The position numbers were made by a program, and so were the translations under genes. This document shows, piece by piece, positions 40,301-56,100 of a stretch of DNA of 64,000 nucleotides (the first letter of the stretch is position 1; every line of letters starts with the position of its first letter). The notes below the pieces were generated by a model. The model worked only from the letters and a program-made list of their open reading frames with translations, ran no database searches and was not told the origin of the DNA. This DNA comes from the human T2T-CHM13v2.0 reference genome, Homo sapiens. The stretch lies in NCBI RefSeq assembly GCF_009914755.1, contig NC_060945.1; one strand, given 5' to 3'.

Positions 40301-40541
40301 CTGTTGCTGGCCTCATTTCACCTCAGACTCTGCGTGCAGGTGGCAGACAGCTTCCGATGCATCTCCCCCATCACAGGCAATAAGAGAGCCCTGAGAAACT
40401 AAGCAAGAGGCCTCCAGCGCTATCGGAGCTGGGTGTTGTTGGGTTTGTTGATACCTGATGGGTGGGCCCAGAAACAGCTCTCCAGGGACCCAGGAACTGG
40501 CCATGGCTGCAGGAGCAACAGCAGCCACCTAGCTGTGCACA

Positions 40542-40871
40542 CAGGAGCCGGGAGGGATGTTCGCAATGGCTGCTCAAGCCGGACAGCAAGGCGACCATGC
40601 CAGCCTCAGTGACCTGAACGGAACCCGAGACGTGCATGCAGGAGCCGGGAGGGACGTTCGCAATCGCTGCTCAAGCCCGACAGCAAGACGACCATGCCAG
40701 CCTCAGTGACCTGAACGGAACCCGAGACAGTCCACCCCGCAAGTCTCACCCAGGAACAGATGGCCCTGGAACTGATGACAGCCTACCCTGCGTGTCTCAC
40801 CTGGGAATGGATGGCCCTGGAACCGATGACAGCCCACCCCACGTGTCTCACCCGGGAATGGACAGCCCTGG
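40542..40871 (+). repeat. 97-bp tandem duplication followed by a 51-bp repeat x~2.8
   Basis: Copies at 40542 and 40639; 51-bp units at 40727, 40778 and 40829. Confidence 0.9.
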
Positions 40872-41224
40872 TTCCTGAGGGGTGGTGCAAGTGCAATTTC
40901 TCCAGGGGTTCTCTGGTTGTAATCTACTGAAAAGCCATTAAAAGGGCTGCCGCATCAGGCTATGGTCCCTGCTGACACCGCTAATCCTGGGGCCAAACCC
41001 CATACTATCCTCTCCTTGCCCTCCCCACATCCTAGACTGGCCTCCCTCAGCTGAGCCTTGGTCTGAACTGTTCGCCCCATGGCACCCAGGCCTCGGTCAT
41101 CCTGCATTGGATGGGCCATGGTTGCTGTGATTACAGCTGCCACTCAGTGCAGATCCCGAAGTGCCCCAGCAAGCTGTCAGCTGCAGGCATTCCCCTCGTT
41201 GGCCCCGTGGTACAGAAGCAAGCC

Positions 41225-41435
41225 TCGATCTCCACGGTGTTCAGAGCCTGCCCACTCCCCATCTCCATGTTGTTCAGAGTCTGGCCCCCCCACCCCTATC
41301 TCCACCGTTTTCGGAGCCTGGCCCCCACCATCTCCATGATGTTCGAAGCCTGGCCCCCTCATCCTGATCTCCACAGTGTTCTGAGCCTGGCACCCCCCCA
41401 ACCCCAGAGATCTCCATGGTGTTCAGAGCCTGGCC
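41225..41435 (+). repeat. Degenerate ~35-45-bp repeat (atctccatggtgttcagagcctggcccc) x~6
   Basis: Core motif directly visible about six times. Confidence 0.8.
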
Positions 41436-41972
41436 CTTTCACAGGTACGGTAAGTGCATGTGTGGCTTGCCCACTGGCACGAGGAGGCCAAAGTGGCCAA
41501 ATGGTGGTCATGGCTTCTAGTCTTGCAGCAACCTGTGTACGCTGGCAGGAGCCTCCCCTCAACCAGGGGGTCAAGGGTTCCAGTCCAAGAGAGCCTCAGA
41601 CTTCAGCCCCAGGAAGCACAGCCATGCAAGCCGTTCACCGTGTGTGCTGGGGAGGGGCCAAACTGGCTTCTGTCCCTGGGGTCCTCAGAGCTTTGTATGC
41701 AAGGTCCCAGGGACACGGGATCATTTCCTGACCATGGGCTCAGCACGGATCCTACGTCCTGGAGTGCAGTTCCTGGGCCAGACGGGCCCAGGCTTTCTTA
41801 GAGCTGCCGCCCATGCCGGGCCATTCGCAAGTCTCCCTTCACTGGTAGGCTGACTGCTTCTGGGTGATGGGTCTGTGGTAACGCCAGTGAATTCCATGGT
41901 CAAGTGCCCGTCATCAGACCTTCTTTACCTTGAAGAGGTCTCTGGGTGCAAGGCAGGTGCTTTGTGAAATAC

Positions 41973-42622
41973 TGTCATAAATGTTTAATGCAGCATAAGG
42001 AGCCACCTACGAACTTAGTGGCCTGAAACCCCAATGTGTTATCTCTCACTGTGCTGGGGGCCGGCAGGATCAGCCCGGTGTTCTGTTCTCATGTTGGTCC
42101 TTCACATGGGTGCAGTCAGATGGCGGCCGAGGCTGGAATCATCCGAAAGCTTCTTCACTGGGACGCGGTCAGATGGCGGCCGAGGCTGGAATCGTCCGAA
42201 AGCTTCTTCACTGGGACGCGGTCAGATGGCGGCCGAGGCTGGAATCGTCCGAAAGCTTCTTCACTGGGACGCGGTCAGATGGTGGCCGAGGCTGGAATCG
42301 TCTGAAAGCTTCTTCACTGGGACGCTGTATCTGCTGCAGGGATCTCTCCTTCTATGAAGCCCCTCCCTTTGTCCAGCTGGGGTTTCCTCACGGCATGGTA
42401 AGGCCAGCACAGTTGGATCTTATGTGCTGGCTGGCTTTTCCCAGAGTGAGCAATCCCAGAGGGAAGAATTTGAAGGTCGACCCCAGAAATGGCACAGCAT
42501 TGCTTCTACTATACTGTATTGGCCAAAGAACCCGCCCAGTTTCAAAGACAAGGAACACAGGTTTCACCTTTTGATGGGAGGGCTGTCAAAGAATTTGTGA
42601 GCGTCTTTAATCTTCTATGTCA
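41973..42622 (-). mobile_element. MLT1 (I/J-like) LTR inserted in ERVL pol
   Basis: aacttagtggcctgaaac...tgcagtcagatggcgg..ggctggaatcatc...caccttttgatgggagg..tcaaagaatttgtg. Confidence 0.7.
42113..42324 (+). repeat. 53-bp VNTR x4 inside MLT1
   Basis: cagatgg at 42117, 42170, 42223 and 42276. Confidence 0.95.
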
Positions 42623-44282
42623 GCAAGTCAGTGAGGTTCAAATTCTGAAAGCCACTGCCAGGGGAGCTGGAAGACACAGGGAGGGTGGGAAGACAGCCCC
42701 ACACCCCGAGTGCGGGTCAAGTTCTGTAAGGATGAGTTGCCCTCTCCTCCAAGGCGAGAGGAGTTTGAGGTCATTGGTTTGCCTCCACGAGGCAGGCTGG
42801 TCTCCCCCAAGAGCAGGGCCAGGTCAGAAACGGTGCTGGTCCGTGCTCTAGCAAGCCAGCCTTGATGAGGAGACCCATGCTGCTGGGCCCAGGCCAAGCT
42901 TTCAGCCTTTCTCTCTTGTGTGCTCTGTTCCTGGCTCAGTTGGCTGATGGCACAGGCTGGCTCGTGGCCACTGTCCGGCCATCCAGTCAGCCTGGTGGCC
43001 TATTGCGTCCTCTGCAGGAGATGCTTCCTGGAGTGTGTTAACGTAAGACACAAATGCCTCCATGTGTGGGGCCCTCTTTTGTAGGACCACCTGCCTGCCT
43101 CTTCCCTCACATTTATTATTTCCAATGTTCTGATCTTGCTCCTTTTGGGTTGCTTGCCTAGGAGCCTGTGAAGATACTTACCATGCGGTGTTTAGCATTT
43201 GTTCCACAGAACTGTGGCCTTGAGTGCTGTGTGCACAGCTCTGACCAGGAGGACTTCCTGCACCCAGAGGGGTCGTAGGGTGGCAGCATCCATGCCCAGC
43301 TGGAACCAACATATTGTGCTGCTGCATCTGTGTTTCTGGCTAGAAACGTGGCAGTGTTTCCGTCTTCCTCTATCAGTTACCACAGGGAACCCCCGCGAGA
43401 GTGTGGCTATAATCAGACGAAGAGTAACGGTGCATGGGGGCAGACAGCACAGACTCCGCAGCACCCGGAATGCACCTGTGTCCTCTGAACCGGCTCAGGC
43501 TGTTTCCCTTGTGCGCTGGGCTGTCCCTGCAGTCACCCACCTGTGGCTCGGTGCACTGATGATAGCCAGCTCACATGGCAGCTCTGCTCACACAGTCACT
43601 TGACCGTTGAGTTGCGTAGTCAGTCTCTGCTAACGCCAAGCATGCCCACAGTTGCTTTTGAAATGGAGGGTGGTTCTTTGGCACTGAAGGCACGGCCTTG
43701 CTTGATAACTCCAAGGGATGTTCTGTGACTGTCATATCAGTATTCACCAGAAACACTGCCATGCTGTTCTCTCCACAGGAACTTCCAGAACCATTGACTC
43801 TGCTGATCCCACAGAACAAGTGGCTCAACAGCTTGCACTGTGGCCTGGACCTGATGCGGAGCCTTCCCTTGCTCTGCGTCCCACTGGAAACAGGTACTTT
43901 CTGGCTCTGATACTAGGTGGGTTGGAACTCGTTCCAGTTGTGGCATACGCTATCTCTGAAATCTAGAGGCCCACCAAAGCCGGTGCCTCCTTCTTAAAGG
44001 AAGAAGATTCAAGGTGCAACAACTTGCCATTTACATAGAAGACATGTCCTGGCATGCCCTGAGTCACTAGATCCCCCAGGTCTTCACTCCTGGGTAGGTC
44101 CCTGAGTCTTCCTGGGGGTTGGCTCCCAGTGTCCCGTGCACAGGTATTTCCTAGGGCAGATAGGACACCCCCGTGTTCTGCTCACCAGGCCCAGTTAGGA
44201 TGCAGCAATGCAGCAGCCCCCAGCCTTCAAGGCCCTGTGGACTACACCCTCGGTAGTCCGAGAGCAGCGCGGGGCTGGGAGC

Positions 44283-46335
44283 CTGTGCTGCCGTTCCGGC
44301 CACGCCGGTGAAGCGCTTCCGGTCCCCGTGCTGGTGGGACTGAGGAGAGCGCCGTGCTGCCGTTCCGGCCACGCCGTGAAGCGCTTCCGATCTCCGTGCT
44401 GGTGGGACTGAGAAGAACGCCGTGCTGCCGTTCCGGCCACGCCGGTGAAGTGCTTCCGGTCCCCGTGCTGGTGGGACTGAGAAGAACGCCATGCTGCCGT
44501 TCTGGCCACGCCGTGAAGCGCTTCCGGTCTCCGTGCTGGTGGGACTGAGAAGAACGCCGTGCTGCCGTTCCGGCCACACCAGAGAAGTGCTTCCGGTCTC
44601 CGTGCTGGTGGGACTGAGGAGAACGCCGTGCTGCCGTTCCGGCCACGCCGTGAAGCGCTTCCGGTCTCCGTGCTGGTGGGACTGAGAAGAACGCCGTGCT
44701 GCCGTTCCGGCCACGCCGGTGAAGTGCTTCCGGTCCCCGTGCTGGTGGGACTGAGGAGAACGCCGTGCTGCCGTTCCGGCCACGCCGTGAAGCGCTTCCG
44801 GTCTCCGTGCTGGTGGGACTGAGAAGAACGCCATGCTGCCGTTCCGGCCACGCCGTGAAGCGCTTCCGGTCTCCGTGCTGGTGGGACTGAGGAGAACGCC
44901 GTGCTGCCGTTCCGGCCACGCCGTGAAGCGCTTCCGGTCTCCGTGCTGGTGGGACTGAGGAGAACGCCGTGCTGCCGTTCCGGCCACGCCGGTGAAGCGC
45001 TTCCGGTCCCCGTGCTGGTGGGACTGAGGAGAACGCCGTGCTGCCGTTCTGGCCACGCCGTGAAGCGCTTCCGGTCTCCGTGCTGGTGGGACTGAGAAGA
45101 ACGCCGTGCTGCCGTTCCGGCCACACCAGAGAAGTGCTTCCGGTCTCCGTGCTGGTGGGACTGAGGAGAACGCAGTGCTGCCGTTCCGGCCACGCCGTGA
45201 AGCGCTTCCGGTCTCCGTGCTGGTGGGACTGAGAAGAACGCCGTGCTGCCGTTCCGGCCACGCCGGTGAAGCGCTTCCGGTCTCCCTGCTGGTGGGACTG
45301 AGGAGAGCGCCGTGCTGCCGTTCCGGCCACGCCGTGAAGCGCTTCCGGTCTCCGTGCTGGTGGGACTGAGAAGAACGCCGTGCTGCCGTTCCGGCCACGC
45401 CGGTGAAGTGCTTCCGGTCCCCGTGCTGGTGGGACTGAGAAGAACGCCGTGCTGCCGTTCTGGCCACGCCGTGAAGCGCTTCCGGTCTCCGTGCTGGTGG
45501 GACTGAGAAGAACGCCGTGCTGCCGTTCCGGCCACACCAGAGAAGTGCTTCCGGTCTCCGTGCTGGTGGGACTGAGGAGAACGCCGTGCTGCCGTTCCGG
45601 CCACGCCGTGAAGCGCTTCCGGTCTCCGTGCTGGTGGGACTGAGAAGAACGCCGTGCTGCCGTTCCGGCCACGCCGGTGAAGTGCTTCCGGTCCCCGTGC
45701 TGGTGGGACTGAGGAGAACGCCGTGCTGCCGTTCCGGCCACGCCGTGAAGCGCTTCCGGTCTCCGTGCTGGTGGGACTGAGAAGAACGCCGTGCTGCCGT
45801 TCCGGCCACGCCGTGAAGCGCTTCCGGTCTCCGTGCTGGTGGGACTGAGAAGAACGCCGTGCTGCCGTTCCGGCCACGCCGTGAAGCGCTTCCGGTCTCC
45901 GTGCTGGTGGGACTGAGAAGAACGCCGTGCTGCCGTTCCGGCCACGCCGGTGAAGTGCTTCCGGTCCCCGTGCTGGTGGGACTGAGGAGAACGCCGTGCT
46001 GCCGTTCTGGCCACGCCGTGAAGCGCTTCCGGTCTCCGTGCTGGTGGGACTGAGAAGAACGCCGTGCTGCCGTTCCGGCCACACCAGAGAAGTGCTTCCG
46101 GTCTCCGTGCTGGTGGGACTGAGGAGAACGCCGTGCTGCCGTTCCGGCCACGCCGTGAAGCGCTTCCGGTCTCCGTGCTGGTGGGACTGAGAAGAACGCC
46201 GTGCTGCCGTTCCGGCCACGCCGGTGAAGCGCTTCCGGTCTCCCTGCTGGTGGGACTGAGGAGAACGCTGTGCTGCCGTTCCGGCCACACCAGAGAAGTG
46301 CTTCTGGTCCCCGTGCTGGTGGGGATTGAGGAGAA
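44283..46335 (+). repeat. 68/69-bp CpG-rich VNTR x30 derived from ERVL reverse transcriptase, with a 958-bp higher-order repeat
   Basis: Unit ccgtgctgccgttccggccacgccgtgaagcgcttccggtctccgtgctggtgggactgagaagaacg; 30 copies counted; ORF-track starts recur at +958. Confidence 0.97.
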
Positions 46336-46761
46336 CACGGGTACAGCTCCACAGCTACCTTTCCCGGGCCAGAGGCTGGGCGGATCTGCCCCAGGGAAGA
46401 CCCCACATCTGCTGCGGCGGCTGCAGTCCGGCTCCTTGAGGCTGGTTTCCTGTCCCCTCCTTCCCACTACGTCCCCTTCCCACCAAAGCAGTGACATCAG
46501 CTCCATCTAGTTTGAAAACAGAGGCTGGTTTGAGGGCTGGAGCCAATTAGTTATCACATTAAAATGTGTGCTATCCCTGGGGAACTTCTTGCAAGGTTTC
46601 ACTTCTTTTCTTTTTTCAAAGAATCGCACTCTTGTTGGCGGGGACCAGCAGAAGACGGAGACGTTTTTCCATAACCAGCTGCTGCTGTGGGAGCCGTGGG
46701 CTGGGAATGCAGCCGAGTCTCCTCTGGGGCATGTGGGTCTCCGAGGCTGGAGTTCTCAGAC

Positions 46762-53539: not shown

Positions 53540-56100
53540 TCTCCCCGAAACCGCCAAGCGCGTCCAAAGCACGGGTTCGCCAAGCGCCCCCCCCGCCCCA
53601 CTCCACATTCCCTTCCCCGCCGACTCAGCCTCCGTAGCTCGCGGACGGCCCCTCCTCACGCCAGCCCAGGCTTTTTTTTTTTTTTTTTTCTATTTTAAGG
53701 TTGTCTTTTAATGACACAAGCGACATTTGGAGACAAAAGGACACATCTCTTCCTGACCCACCTCCAACCCCAGCTGACGGCCGCCCTGAGCCTGGCGTAG
53801 ACGGCCCGGAACGTTCCCTGCGTGGGTTCCGTCCATCCCGAACCCCTGTCCCCGCGCCGGCTCCGGGGGTGCTCGGGGGGCCGCGTGGGGTCTGTGACGT
53901 CGCCTCGAGGCTGCATCCCGGTGACCCGGCAGCCCCTGGCGCTCGCGGGAGGCGGGCGGGCGCGGACCCCAGGCTTTAGGGCGCGATTCCTGCAGCTGGC
54001 TGCCGGCCCGAGGTTCTGGGGTGTCTGAGGTCTCGGGCGGGGCGAGGACGTTTCTCCGGCTCAGCCCCCCCACCTCCTGCCCTGCCGCCCCCCACACCCA
54101 GCTCCCCACGGACGCCAAGAGGCGCCTCCCACCCCGGCGAGGACCCGCGGGGAAACGGGGCCCAGGCGCGGCGACTGCGGAGGACGCGCCTCGGCCCCAG
54201 CGCCCTGGTCCTCGGGGCGTCCGGCTGCCCTTGCCCGAGGCCGGGGCGGGCGCTCAGCGCCGCGGAAGAAACGCCCGGGCGGGGACGCACAGCGAGGCGG
54301 GCTCCGCGGGAAGTACCGGGAAAACGGCGCGGAGCGGAACAGCCCGGAGCCAGCCCAGAGAAAGGGCGGCCTCCCCCTGCAGCCCCCGGGGCCCAGCAAC
54401 GCCCCGCCCCAGGCCACGGCACGCGAACGCCGGGCGGGCGGAGGGGACAGGGCCGCGGGACCAGCGCGGGGCGGGCGGCGTCTGGGCACAGGCTCACGGG
54501 CCGCTCGGGGCCCCTGCCCGCCGGGCGCTGCGGCCCCAGCCTCCGGGCCGGGGCCAGGCCCACAGAGAACGGGAAGCGGGCGCTGCAGGGGGACCTTCGG
54601 GGTTGCGGCACGGCTGGGAATTCAACGGCCATTCCCGTCCCGTCGGGCCCACCCGCCCGCCCGCCAAATCCCCGCCCACCGCGGATCCGCCCCGTCCACC
54701 AAGGTCTCGCTCACCAACGGCCCGCCCCGCCCACCACAGGCCTGGCCCGCCCACGAAGGCTCGCCCCGCCCATCCACGGCCCTGCCCACCACAGGCCCGC
54801 CCCAAGCCTGGGCCCCGCCCCAGCAAGGGCACTAATCCCCTAACCCCCGAGCCCCGCCCACTGCTCTTGCCCTTCTCCCGCCCGCCCCGACTTAGGCCTC
54901 TCCCCGGCCTGGCCTCCCGTACTCAGCCCCGCCCCTGCCCCGCCCCCACCCCACCCCAAATGTGACCTGCCCCTCCCACTGCCCGTCCCCTCCCCGCTTC
55001 ACTTCATTAGGGCCCCGCCCCGATTCTTGCCCCGCCCGCTCAATGTCCCGCCTACGACCCCGCCCACTACTAGTGACCGGCCCGCCCGTTCGAGGCCCCG
55101 CCTCCTCCCCGCCCAATGCTCGGCCCCGCCCCGCGCGTCATTGGGCCAGGTCCCCGCCCCGCCCCCAGCCCCACCCCCGCCCCTTTGACTGGAGTTGGCT
55201 TTTTCCAGAGAACTTTCCGGGCTCGGATTGGCCGCGCCGGTTGATGTTCCGCCCTTTCATTGGCCCGCGGCGCCCGCTTTCGCGAGCCTGCCCTTGGGCG
55301 GGGGCGGGGCCGGCGGCGGCGCGCGGCGCTAGATTGGTTAGCGGCGCAGAGGGGCGGGCCCGCGCCGCGCGCAGCGCTCGGGCTGGAGCGCCTGAAGCCG
55401 CGACCGCCGCCTCAGCCGCCTCAGCCGCGGTCGCCGCCGCTTCGGCTGACTTAGGCTCCGCCGCCGCCTCCTCACCCGCCTCGCCCCGACCCCGCCCGGG
55501 CCTCCCGGCCTCTCCCCGCCGGCCCGCGGGCTCGCCGTCCGGCGCAGGGCAGGTGAGTGAGCGGTGGCGGGCGGGGTCGGGGTCGGGCGCCCTTGCGGGT
55601 TACGGGGACCCAGTCCCCGACGGAGGCCGAGTGACGGGGCGACCCCGGGCCGCGGCAAACTTCGCCCGAGCCGGGGCGGGCGGGGGTCCCGGGCTGGGTC
55701 GCGCCGTCCCCGACCGCCGCCGGCGCCTGCGGCGGCCCGGGGCAGCGAGGGGACTCGCGCTCCCTCAAGGTGCGGTCGCCAGGCCTGGCCCGCCCGCCTC
55801 CGCCCCCTCCCCAAATTCGGAAGTTGCGGCGGGAAGCCGAGAACGTCTCGGATGTGGGTCAGAAAACGTCTGGACTACTTGAGGCTTCAGTTTCAAAACG
55901 GCACAAATTTCATCTCTTGATTGAGAAGAGATCTGGGGAACACCCCGGAGCGGCCGCGGCGGCTGGAGGGCGGCGGGGCGGGGCGCGGGGCCTCCTCCCC
56001 TTGGACGGCCGCCGGGAGAGCGCGGCCTCACCCCTCGGTGACCCTGCGGAGAGCCGCGCGCGGGCGGTGGGGCGCGCGCAGGTCTCTCTTGTTGCTCGCT
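53540..56100. promoter_or_regulatory. Large CpG-island promoter with GC boxes and five CCAAT boxes
   Basis: About 2.5 kb of very high CpG density; many CCCCGCCC; CCAAT 55113 and ATTGG at 55140, 55227, 55259 and 55333; no TATA box seen. Confidence 0.92.
55350..55552 (+). other. PCBP3: Non-coding first (5'UTR) exon of a gene continuing beyond the window; tentatively PCBP3
   Basis: Lies just downstream of the CCAAT/GC boxes, is GCC-rich, has no ATG and ends at a strong donor GCAG|GTGAGT. The gene identity is recall of the 21q22.3 context only and no coding exon is in the window. Confidence 0.45.

What the first reader, a model, noticed from the sequence alone, without database searches (positions are those of the whole stretch)
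44150..46440. A 2-kb VNTR formed by tandem amplification of the catalytic core of an ERV-L reverse transcriptase
Seen: on the minus strand the right flank reads TAAAAADVGSSLGQIRPASGPGKVAVEL then VFSSIP. Each 68/69-bp unit reads, with frameshifts, AFFSVP / GDRK(H/R)F / AWPERQH. The left flank continues ...VVHRAL...LHCCILTGPGEQ and WEPTPRKTQGPT. Established (recalled): HERV-L/ERVL RT reads [59 protein letters not shown]...YIDDIMLIGP.EQ...GWEINP.KIQGP. Inference: the unit is the ~23-codon segment just after RT motif A (DLxxAFFSIP), copied 30 times in place, with collinear RT on both sides. Standard annotation would probably label this only as a simple repeat. TE-derived minisatellites are known in general, but one made from an RT core segment is unusual; I cannot say whether this locus has been described.
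Basis: partly seen in the sequence, partly recalled or inferred. Interest (0 to 1): 0.8.

Follow-up and report, generated by a model that had tools for sequence, protein, structure and literature searches.

The report
Minisatellite grown from a dead retrovirus gene
A 2-kb run of thirty 68-69-base repeats upstream of PCBP3 was most likely made by copying, over and over, a short piece of the reverse transcriptase gene of a long-dead endogenous retrovirus, which is a real but ordinary way for human minisatellites to arise.

Summary
The array is real: window 44285-46338, 30 head-to-tail units of 68-70 bp. It consists of two edge units plus two 14-unit blocks (958 and 957 bp) that differ at 9 of 957 positions.

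It lies inside a degenerate minus-strand retroviral pol.
- The left flank, 44216 down to 42668, matches natural HERV-L-like copies of the same genome strongly (DNA z 34-40; tblastn E to 2e-12).
- The right flank, 46424-46344, matches the RT residues just before motif A in one register in 7 of 7 copies. No shuffle of 500 reached the score in 5 of them.
- The commonest unit matches the 22-24 RT residues that follow. At most 1 of 1000 shuffles reached the score in 4 of 4 copies.

Weaker results: Pfam, plain tblastn and plain DNA alignment do not see the unit. The 68 bp left of the array are unrecognisable.

Copy-number variation was not testable. The unit lacks the catalytic aspartates.

TE-derived minisatellites are common (7,276 of 31,472; PMC3389668). 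So this is a new member of a known kind. One mildly interesting feature is that the array is a CpG island with 28 ETS-like words.

The parts
46344..46427 (-). Right flank: degenerate RT residues that precede and include the 'DL' of motif A (reads TAAAAADVGSSLGQIRPASGPGKVAVEL)
   Evidence: Ungapped match in the same register to 7 of 7 natural RT frames. Shuffles reaching the score: 0/500 in 5, 1/500 in 1, 80/500 in 1. DNA local alignment z 4.3 and 3.3 against L014 and L010, but z 0.1 and 1.8 at non-homologous places against L005 and L013. Plain tblastn gives only E 1.2.
46428..46535 (-). Possible further upstream RT (fingers), very degenerate
   Evidence: Only one frameshift-aware alignment, to L014 residues 14-48, extends here. 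The longer right flank 46640..46337 gives only z 0.6-3.9. Weak.
46269..46338 (-). Unit 1 (70 bp), the edge unit and the most divergent. It has 3 CpG and keeps ACCAGAAGCA, as natural copies L014 and L010 do.
   Evidence: Right flank plus unit 1 aligns collinearly to RT through ...WQGQQY: scores 59 and 56 with 0/150 shuffles (z 7.9, 7.8), 45 with 0/150, 42 with 3/150.
45242..46268 (-). Unit 2 and higher-order block 1 (units 3-16, 958 bp)
   Evidence: Unit table and class string bcabacaaacabacac.... Lag 958 gives 95.9% self-identity.
44285..45241 (-). Higher-order block 2 (units 17-30, 957 bp)
   Evidence: Differs from block 1 at 9 of 957 positions, 5 of them in CpG context.
44217..44284 (-). Junction stretch left of the array, not recognisable as RT
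   Evidence: Restricted frameshift-aware test against 4 natural copies: z -0.8 to 0.6, with 125-427 of 500 shuffles reaching the score.
44096..44216 (-). Left flank: degenerate motif C region (LLHCC..ILTGPGEQ) through WEPTPRKTQGP
   Evidence: Score 54 against L005 residues 70-113, 0/150 shuffles, z 5.7. Weaker against L013 (10/150) and L014 (23/150), nothing against L010.
43610..44095 (-). RT thumb and connection domain
   Evidence: DNA local alignments 44128-43767 against 4 natural copies, z 34-40. tblastn hits at 44034-43966, 43931-43770 and 43723-43610, E 6e-8 to 4e-6.
42668..43150 (-). End of RNase H and N-terminal/core part of integrase
   Evidence: tblastn against L014 ORF, E 2.1e-12 over 176 columns, plus five further integrase hits with E 1e-6 to 5e-4.

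Best explanation
An old, inactive endogenous retrovirus of the HERV-L-like kind lies on the minus strand of this window. About 70 bp of its reverse transcriptase gene, coding the residues between motif A and motif B, was duplicated in place. It then expanded by replication slippage and unequal exchange to 30 units. The last large step was the duplication of a 14-unit (958-bp) block. During expansion and homogenisation the units gained CpGs, so the array is now a 2-kb CpG-island-like stretch. It is a passive by-product of repeat instability near the distal end of 21q. It encodes nothing. Any regulatory activity would be a side effect of its sequence content. Shown: the array, its block structure, the RT identity of both flanks, and the match of the unit to the expected RT segment. 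Inferred: the mechanism of the first duplication, the order of events, and the cause of the CpG gain.
For: Array and substructure. Left flank is retroviral pol: DNA z 34-40 against 4 of 4 natural copies, and tblastn E down to 2.1e-12 from RT thumb to integrase. Right flank: the same ungapped register in 7 of 7 natural copies, with 0/500 shuffles in 5 of them. Right flank plus unit 1 is collinear through WQGQQY, with 0/150 shuffles in 3 of 4 copies. Commonest internal unit against the 22-24-residue segment AFFSIP..WQGQQY: 0/1000, 0/1000, 0/1000 and 1/1000 shuffles, z 5.2-8.0. Three internal units against whole natural RT frames: the best alignment falls on the homologous segment in 6 of 12 frames. 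These are all four frames that contain the segment intact, plus two that end inside it. Shuffle counts for the four were 0/150, 4/150, 5/150 and 6/150. Edge unit 1 keeps ACCAGAAGCA, as natural copies L014 and L010 do, where 28 internal units have ACCGGAAG. The reference frames are bona fide RVT_1 (E 5e-13 to 2e-20) and are closest to foamy-virus PR-RT structures. The unit is found at no other locus of the genome.
Against: Pfam finds no RT in any of the six X-read frames of the flanks. Plain tblastn with four natural RT frames does not hit the units, and hits the flanks only at E 0.3-1.2. Plain DNA local alignment of three units to natural copies is no better than shuffles (z -2.1 to 0.0). At the homologous place only 37-46 of 72 bases match (40-46 apart from the truncated last unit); unit 1 is reached by 14-29 of 500 shuffles, and unit 3 by 0-8 of 500. 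Units 1+2 taken alone against whole frames are not significant (6-46 of 150). The 68 bp left of the array are unrecognisable. The natural copies are related to each other, so they are not independent replicates. The short similarity between the two ends of the duplicated segment in natural copies is modest (10-13 of 30 bases), so the slippage-between-direct-repeats step is weakly supported.
Confidence: 0.8

Rival explanations
1. The array is an unrelated GC-rich minisatellite that arose or landed inside the dead pol gene. Its resemblance to the RT segment is chance, helped by reading three frames of a short unit.
For: The unit is invisible to Pfam, plain tblastn and plain DNA local alignment. 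DNA identity at the homologous place is only 37-46 of 72. The left junction is unrecognisable. This window carries several other tandem arrays, so arrays arise here readily.
Against: Unit against expected segment: 0-1 of 1000 shuffles in 4 of 4 natural copies. The best alignment falls at the same place in every frame that contains the segment. Unit 1 runs on collinearly from the right-flank RT (z up to 7.9). The array sits exactly where that segment is otherwise missing between the two flanks. No other source of the unit exists in the genome.
Confidence: 0.1
2. The array is a functional, copy-number-dependent regulatory element, not a passive by-product. It would be a cluster of ETS-type binding words in an unmethylated CpG island upstream of PCBP3, kept or expanded by selection.
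For: ACCGGAAG occurs 28 times in the array and once in the other 62 kb. GC is 67.5% and CpG observed/expected is 1.02, against 0.35-0.42 in the flanks. The hub's RefSeq table lists an 'enhancer' feature at 44317-45515, inside the array. I did not verify that feature.
Against: No binding, methylation, expression or population data were available. High CpG content and motif multiplicity follow automatically from amplifying one CpG-rich unit. Reading ACCGGAAG as an ETS core is recalled, not tested. Repetitive DNA often gives spurious signals in reporter and mapping assays.
Confidence: 0.12
3. The array length or structure is an assembly artefact.
For: Nothing specific. Tandem arrays are the usual place for assembly errors.
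Against: The 30 units fall into 15 sequence variants arranged in an ordered pattern. The two 14-unit blocks differ at 9 of 957 positions, which is not what a collapsed or artificially duplicated array looks like. By the hub's note, the source is a telomere-to-telomere assembly.
Confidence: 0.02

Closest known systems
Transposable-element-derived minisatellites of the human genome (Ahmed and Liang 2012, PMC3389668; passages read)
   Same: A tandem array whose unit is a piece of a TE, lying inside that TE copy and formed after insertion. Their survey counts 7,276 of 31,472 minisatellites as TE-derived, with 1,597 ERV-associated. It notes that older arrays are hard to detect because of divergence.
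   Different: Most of their ERV cases are young HERV-K or LTR12 sequences with few units. This one comes from the coding interior of a very old element, has 30 units, and is so diverged from its source that only frameshift-aware comparison shows the origin.
Alu-derived minisatellites (Jurka and Gentles 2006, known here only through its citation in PMC3389668)
   Same: The proposed origin is tandem duplication between short direct repeats that flank the amplified TE segment.
   Different: Here the similarity between the two segment ends in natural copies is only 10-13 of 30 bases. That mechanism is therefore plausible but weakly supported.
The 66-bp VNTR in intron 11 of PCBP3 (Course et al. 2021, PMC8327921; passages read)
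   Same: A structured minisatellite of similar unit length at the same gene, with higher-order motif organisation changed by block duplications and deletions.
   Different: It is a different locus. This array lies about 9-11 kb upstream of the first PCBP3 exon in the hub's table (exon at 55409). It has a 68-69-bp unit and is not mentioned in the passages read.
The 33-bp large minisatellite at 16q24.1 flanked by MLT1D ERVL-MaLR sequence (PMC4411736; passages read)
   Same: A kilobase-scale unstable minisatellite embedded in an old LTR-class element.
   Different: That one is flanked by LTR sequence and no coding origin is claimed. Here the unit itself maps to a pol coding segment.

Membership tests
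TE-derived minisatellite | Head-to-tail array with a unit longer than 20 bp and at least 2 copies | tested here: met
   30 units of 68-70 bp.
TE-derived minisatellite | The unit is homologous to a segment of a transposable element | tested here: met
   Unit against the RT segment of 4 natural copies: 0-1 of 1000 shuffles. Homologous placement in 6 of 12 frames, including all 4 with the segment intact. Not seen by Pfam, tblastn or plain DNA alignment.
TE-derived minisatellite | The array lies within the same TE copy, with flanks collinear | tested here: met
   Right flank. Left flank from 44216 downward. Exception: 44284-44217 is unrecognisable.
TE-derived minisatellite | At least 95% identity among units (the selection criterion of PMC3389668) | tested here: inconclusive
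   93% at period 68 and 95% at period 137.
VNTR (copy number variable among individuals) | Different allele lengths in a population | not testable with these tools
   Only one human assembly was held. Searches of papers found no description of this locus.
ERV-L / class III endogenous retrovirus pol | RT, RNase H and integrase homology to HERV-L-like copies | tested here: met
   for the left flank. for the right flank. The window's own frames fail Pfam.
ERV-L / class III endogenous retrovirus pol | Closest exogenous relatives are foamy viruses | tested here: inconclusive
   Shown only for reference copy L014: best solved match is foamy-virus PR-RT 7kse, E 1e-16. Not shown for the window copy itself.
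ERV-L / class III endogenous retrovirus pol | Family-specific LTRs, primer-binding site and dUTPase; a family name from a repeat library | not tested
   No Dfam or Repbase was available. No pro or gag was detected on the minus strand above 44134 by tblastn. The ERV-L name rests on recall.
Multi-locus satellite family | The same unit at other loci | tested here: not met
   12 of 12 matches lie inside this array.
CpG island (length over 200 bp, GC over 50%, observed/expected CpG over 0.6; criteria recalled) | Composition thresholds | tested here: met
   2052 bp, GC 67.5%, 237 CpG, observed/expected 1.02. Methylation state is not testable here.

The most novel reading that the evidence does not exclude
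A single A-to-G change in the amplified RT segment turned ACCAGAAG into ACCGGAAG, which I recall as an ETS-factor core. Unit 1 and natural copies L014 and L010 still carry the A form. Spread of the G variant through the array produced 28 such words and a 2-kb CpG island. The dead RT fragment would then act as a copy-number-tunable enhancer or unannotated promoter upstream of PCBP3, and array length would influence expression.
Probability: 0.1. Interest if true: 0.55.

Novelty: new member of a known kind. Interest (0 to 1): 0.25.

Why it matters
It gives a clean worked example of a coding fragment of an ancient provirus seeding a large minisatellite, one that standard annotation would label only as a simple repeat. 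It also shows that such origins can be recovered with frameshift-aware comparison to natural copies when profile and BLAST searches fail. The class is well known, so the finding changes no general view. If the array proves length-polymorphic and its ETS-like words are bound, it would be a candidate regulatory VNTR for PCBP3. All three minus-strand frames are free of stop codons across 2,052 bp, so gene predictors could call a spurious repetitive protein here.

Tried and rejected
1. Pfam on X-read translations of all three frames of both flanks gave no relevant hit. Five of six frames had nothing, and one had an irrelevant DUF5714 at E 0.17. The first attempt without X was rejected by the tool because of stop codons.
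2. Plain tblastn of four natural RT frames against the window gave only E 0.3-1.2 at the flanks and nothing in the units.
3. Plain DNA local alignment of three units to natural copies was no better than shuffles.
4. An own-genome DNA search with the right flank found only the flank itself, so no closer relative was available.
5. I tested whether edge unit 1 is closer overall to the source than internal units. It is not: 40-43 against 37-46 matches of 72. Only the local word ACCAGAAGCA and the low CpG count mark it as older.
6. I tested for microhomology between the two ends of the amplified segment. It is modest: 10-13 of 30 bases.
7. I considered beta satellite, whose 68-bp unit I recall, and set it aside. 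The unit occurs at one locus only.
8. I checked whether this is the published PCBP3 VNTR. It is not; that one is a 66-bp repeat in intron 11.
9. The supplementary list of PMC3389668 could not be opened.
Full report
**Observation**

Tandem Repeats Finder reports a single array at window 44285-46336. At period 68 it has 30.0 copies, 93% matches and score 3570. At period 137 it has 15.0 copies and 95% matches. Cutting the minus strand at the recurring unit start gives 30 units. Unit 1, at the right edge (46338-46269), is 70 bp, and the rest are 68 or 69 bp.

**Anatomy of the array**

- There are 15 distinct unit sequences, and the commonest occurs 8 times.
- Sorted into three classes by a diagnostic middle word, the units read bcabacaaacabacacabacaaacabacac.
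- That is two edge units followed by two copies of a 14-unit block. Self-identity at a lag of 958 bp is 95.9%, against 84% at 137 bp and 64% at 68 bp.
- The two blocks (958 and 957 bp) differ at 9 of 957 positions, 5 of them in CpG context.
- The array has GC 67.5% and 237 CpGs, with observed/expected 1.02. The flanks have 0.35-0.42 and the whole window 0.43.
- Unit 1 has 3 CpGs and the other units have 6-9.
- No minus-strand frame has a stop codon across the array. The plus-strand frames have 18-19 stops each.
- A DNA search of the window's own genome with four units returned 12 matches, all inside this array. It is therefore a single-locus minisatellite and not a satellite family. That search skips very common words.

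**Reference material**

No repeat-family library was available. I took natural relatives from the window's own genome instead.

- A DNA search with the left flank found 6 other places, with 71-86% identity over 50-135 bp.
- A protein search with an X-read frame of the left flank found 11 other places, with 32-44% identity and E from 6.6e-10 to 9.8e-4. Of 204 candidates, 150 were scored.
- Several of these loci keep open RT frames.
- Three such frames (L014, L010, L005) are RVT_1 by Pfam, with E from 5.2e-13 to 1.8e-20.
- The best solved relative of L014 is foamy-virus protease-RT 7kse, at E 1e-16.
It is not a tool result.
- Only unchanged natural stretches were compared. No collapsed, joined or consensus sequence was made.

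**Left flank**

- DNA local alignment of 44353..43700 to four natural copies gives scores of 60-68, against shuffle means near 12 (z 34-40). The alignments cover 44128-43767.
- tblastn of 286 open frames from the loci against the window gives collinear minus-strand hits.
  - RT thumb: 44034-43770.
  - Connection domain: 43723-43610.
  - RNase H end and integrase: 43150-42668, with best E 2.1e-12.
- A frameshift-aware protein-to-DNA alignment that I wrote (BLOSUM62, gap 6, frameshift 9) extends this to 44216. There the degenerate motif C region through WEPTPRKTQGP scores 54 against L005 (0 of 150 shuffles, z 5.7). It is weaker against L013 (10/150) and L014 (23/150), and L010 gives nothing.
- The 68 bp between the array and 44216 are not recognisable. 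With four copies, z is -0.8 to 0.6.
- In natural copies this gap is 34 residues (102 bp). About 34 bp therefore seem to have been lost.

**Right flank**

- Plain tools are weak here. Pfam finds nothing. tblastn gives E 1.2. The own-genome DNA search finds only the flank itself. DNA local alignment gives z 4.3 and 3.3 with two copies, and nothing at the homologous place with two others.
- Next I restricted the test to the RT residues expected just before the unit. Then 46424-46344 aligns without gaps in one register to 7 of 7 natural frames.
- Shuffles reaching the score were 0 of 500 in five frames, 1 of 500 in one and 80 of 500 in one.
- With unit 1 attached (46440..46270), the alignment runs on collinearly through the residues ...WQGQQY.
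  - L010: score 59, 0/150 shuffles (z 7.9).
  - L016: score 56, 0/150 shuffles (z 7.8).
  - L019: score 45, 0/150 shuffles.
  - L014: score 42, 3/150 shuffles.

**The unit**

- I aligned three internal units (45204..45000) to 12 natural RT frames.
- The best alignment fell on the segment AFFSIP..WQGQQY in 6 of 12. These are the four frames that contain the segment intact (L014, L010, L005, L013) and two that end inside it (L016, L019).
- L006 matched the residues just before the segment. The other five matched elsewhere, with scores no better than shuffles.
- For the four intact frames, 0, 4, 5 and 6 of 150 shuffles reached the score.
- The commonest unit against just the 22-24-residue segment was reached by 0, 0, 0 and 1 of 1000 shuffles (z 5.2-8.0).

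Results against the reading:

- Plain tblastn does not hit the units.
- Plain DNA local alignment is at shuffle level.
- At the homologous place only 37-46 of 72 bases match, and all but the truncated last unit give 40-46. Unit 3 is reached by 0-8 of 500 shuffles and unit 1 by 14-29 of 500.
- Units 1+2 alone against whole frames are not significant.
- The natural copies are kin, so they are not independent replicates.

Taken together, the position between two RT flanks, the collinear run-on of unit 1, and the unit-to-segment match make the RT origin the best reading. I put it at about 0.8.

**What is amplified**

The unit covers the residues after the 'DL' of motif A and before the LPQG of motif B. 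The motif-A aspartate lies in the right flank and the degenerate motif C lies in the left flank. No catalytic residue is repeated, so 'catalytic core' overstates it.

**Mechanism (inferred)**

A first duplication of about 70 bp was probably followed by slippage and unequal exchange, with the 14-unit block duplication as the last large step.

- In the frameshift-aware alignments, the start of the next unit (AFSSVP) falls on TFTVLP of the natural copies. The two ends of the segment therefore resemble each other. At the DNA level the resemblance is only 10-13 of 30 bases.
- Unit 1 keeps ACCAGAAGCA, as L014 and L010 do, and has few CpGs. By contrast, 28 of 30 units carry ACCGGAAG.
- This fits the common picture, recalled, that edge units escape homogenisation and keep older states.
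- The CpG gain may reflect GC-biased conversion or lack of germline methylation near the distal end of 21q. The chromosome length behind 'distal' is recalled. Neither cause was testable.

**Function**

Most likely there is none, beyond being a CpG-rich repeat.

- ACCGGAAG, which I recall as an ETS core, occurs 28 times in the array and once elsewhere in the window.
- The hub's table lists a RefSeq 'enhancer' at 44317-45515. I could not verify it.
- A copy-number-dependent regulatory role upstream of PCBP3 is therefore not excluded. I give it about 0.1.

**Comparison with what is known**

- Ahmed and Liang (PMC3389668; passages read) count 7,276 of 31,472 human minisatellites as TE-derived, with 1,597 linked to ERVs. 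They note that old arrays are under-detected.
- The published PCBP3 VNTR is a different 66-bp repeat in intron 11 (PMC8327921; passages read. Also PMC12047238; passages read).
- A large 16q24.1 minisatellite flanked by MLT1D sequence is another LTR-embedded case (PMC4411736; passages read).
- Four searches found no description of this locus: 'PCBP3 + VNTR', 'ERVL + minisatellite', 'HERV-L + VNTR' (listing only), and a five-term search on minisatellite, RT, endogenous retrovirus, tandem duplication and pol gene, which returned 0 papers.
- The supplementary table of PMC3389668 that might list the locus could not be opened.

**Verdict**

The thing is an ordinary kind, a TE-derived minisatellite, in an unusually diverged and large form. 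Variable copy number is untested. Interest is low to moderate.

Noticed in passing
window 42100-42325 (within 41985-42600): A second tandem array (53 bp x 4.3 copies, 95% matches) lies about 2 kb away. It sits inside a stretch of about 600 bp that interrupts the integrase part of the same provirus. From memory the stretch resembles the 3' part of a MaLR-type LTR, which was not tested. An own-genome search found only 3 weak matches elsewhere, at 74-82% identity over 62-95 bp. If the recollection is right, this is a second TE-derived minisatellite in the same element.
   Followed up: partly
window 40535-41436: Three further small tandem arrays were found: 97 bp x 2.0, 51 bp x 3.0, and 37/69 bp x 5.8/2.5. 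The neighbourhood is dense in minisatellites.
   Followed up: no
window 46764 to at least 48000: A long, impure TG-rich repeat begins about 340 bp beyond the recognisable right-flank RT (periods 2, 9, 11 and 15, 64-67% matches). No pro or gag homology was detected on the minus strand between 44134 and 60752. The provirus therefore appears truncated or overwritten here.
   Followed up: partly
window 41875-41895, minus strand: The translation reads GIHWRYH followed by an integrase-like stretch. It lies beyond the 600-bp interruption, which suggests that the integrase continues there. I read this directly and did not test it statistically.
   Followed up: no
window 44285-46336, minus strand: All three reading frames are free of stop codons for 2,052 bp. 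ORF finders will therefore list three overlapping open frames of about 680 codons that are not genes.
   Followed up: yes
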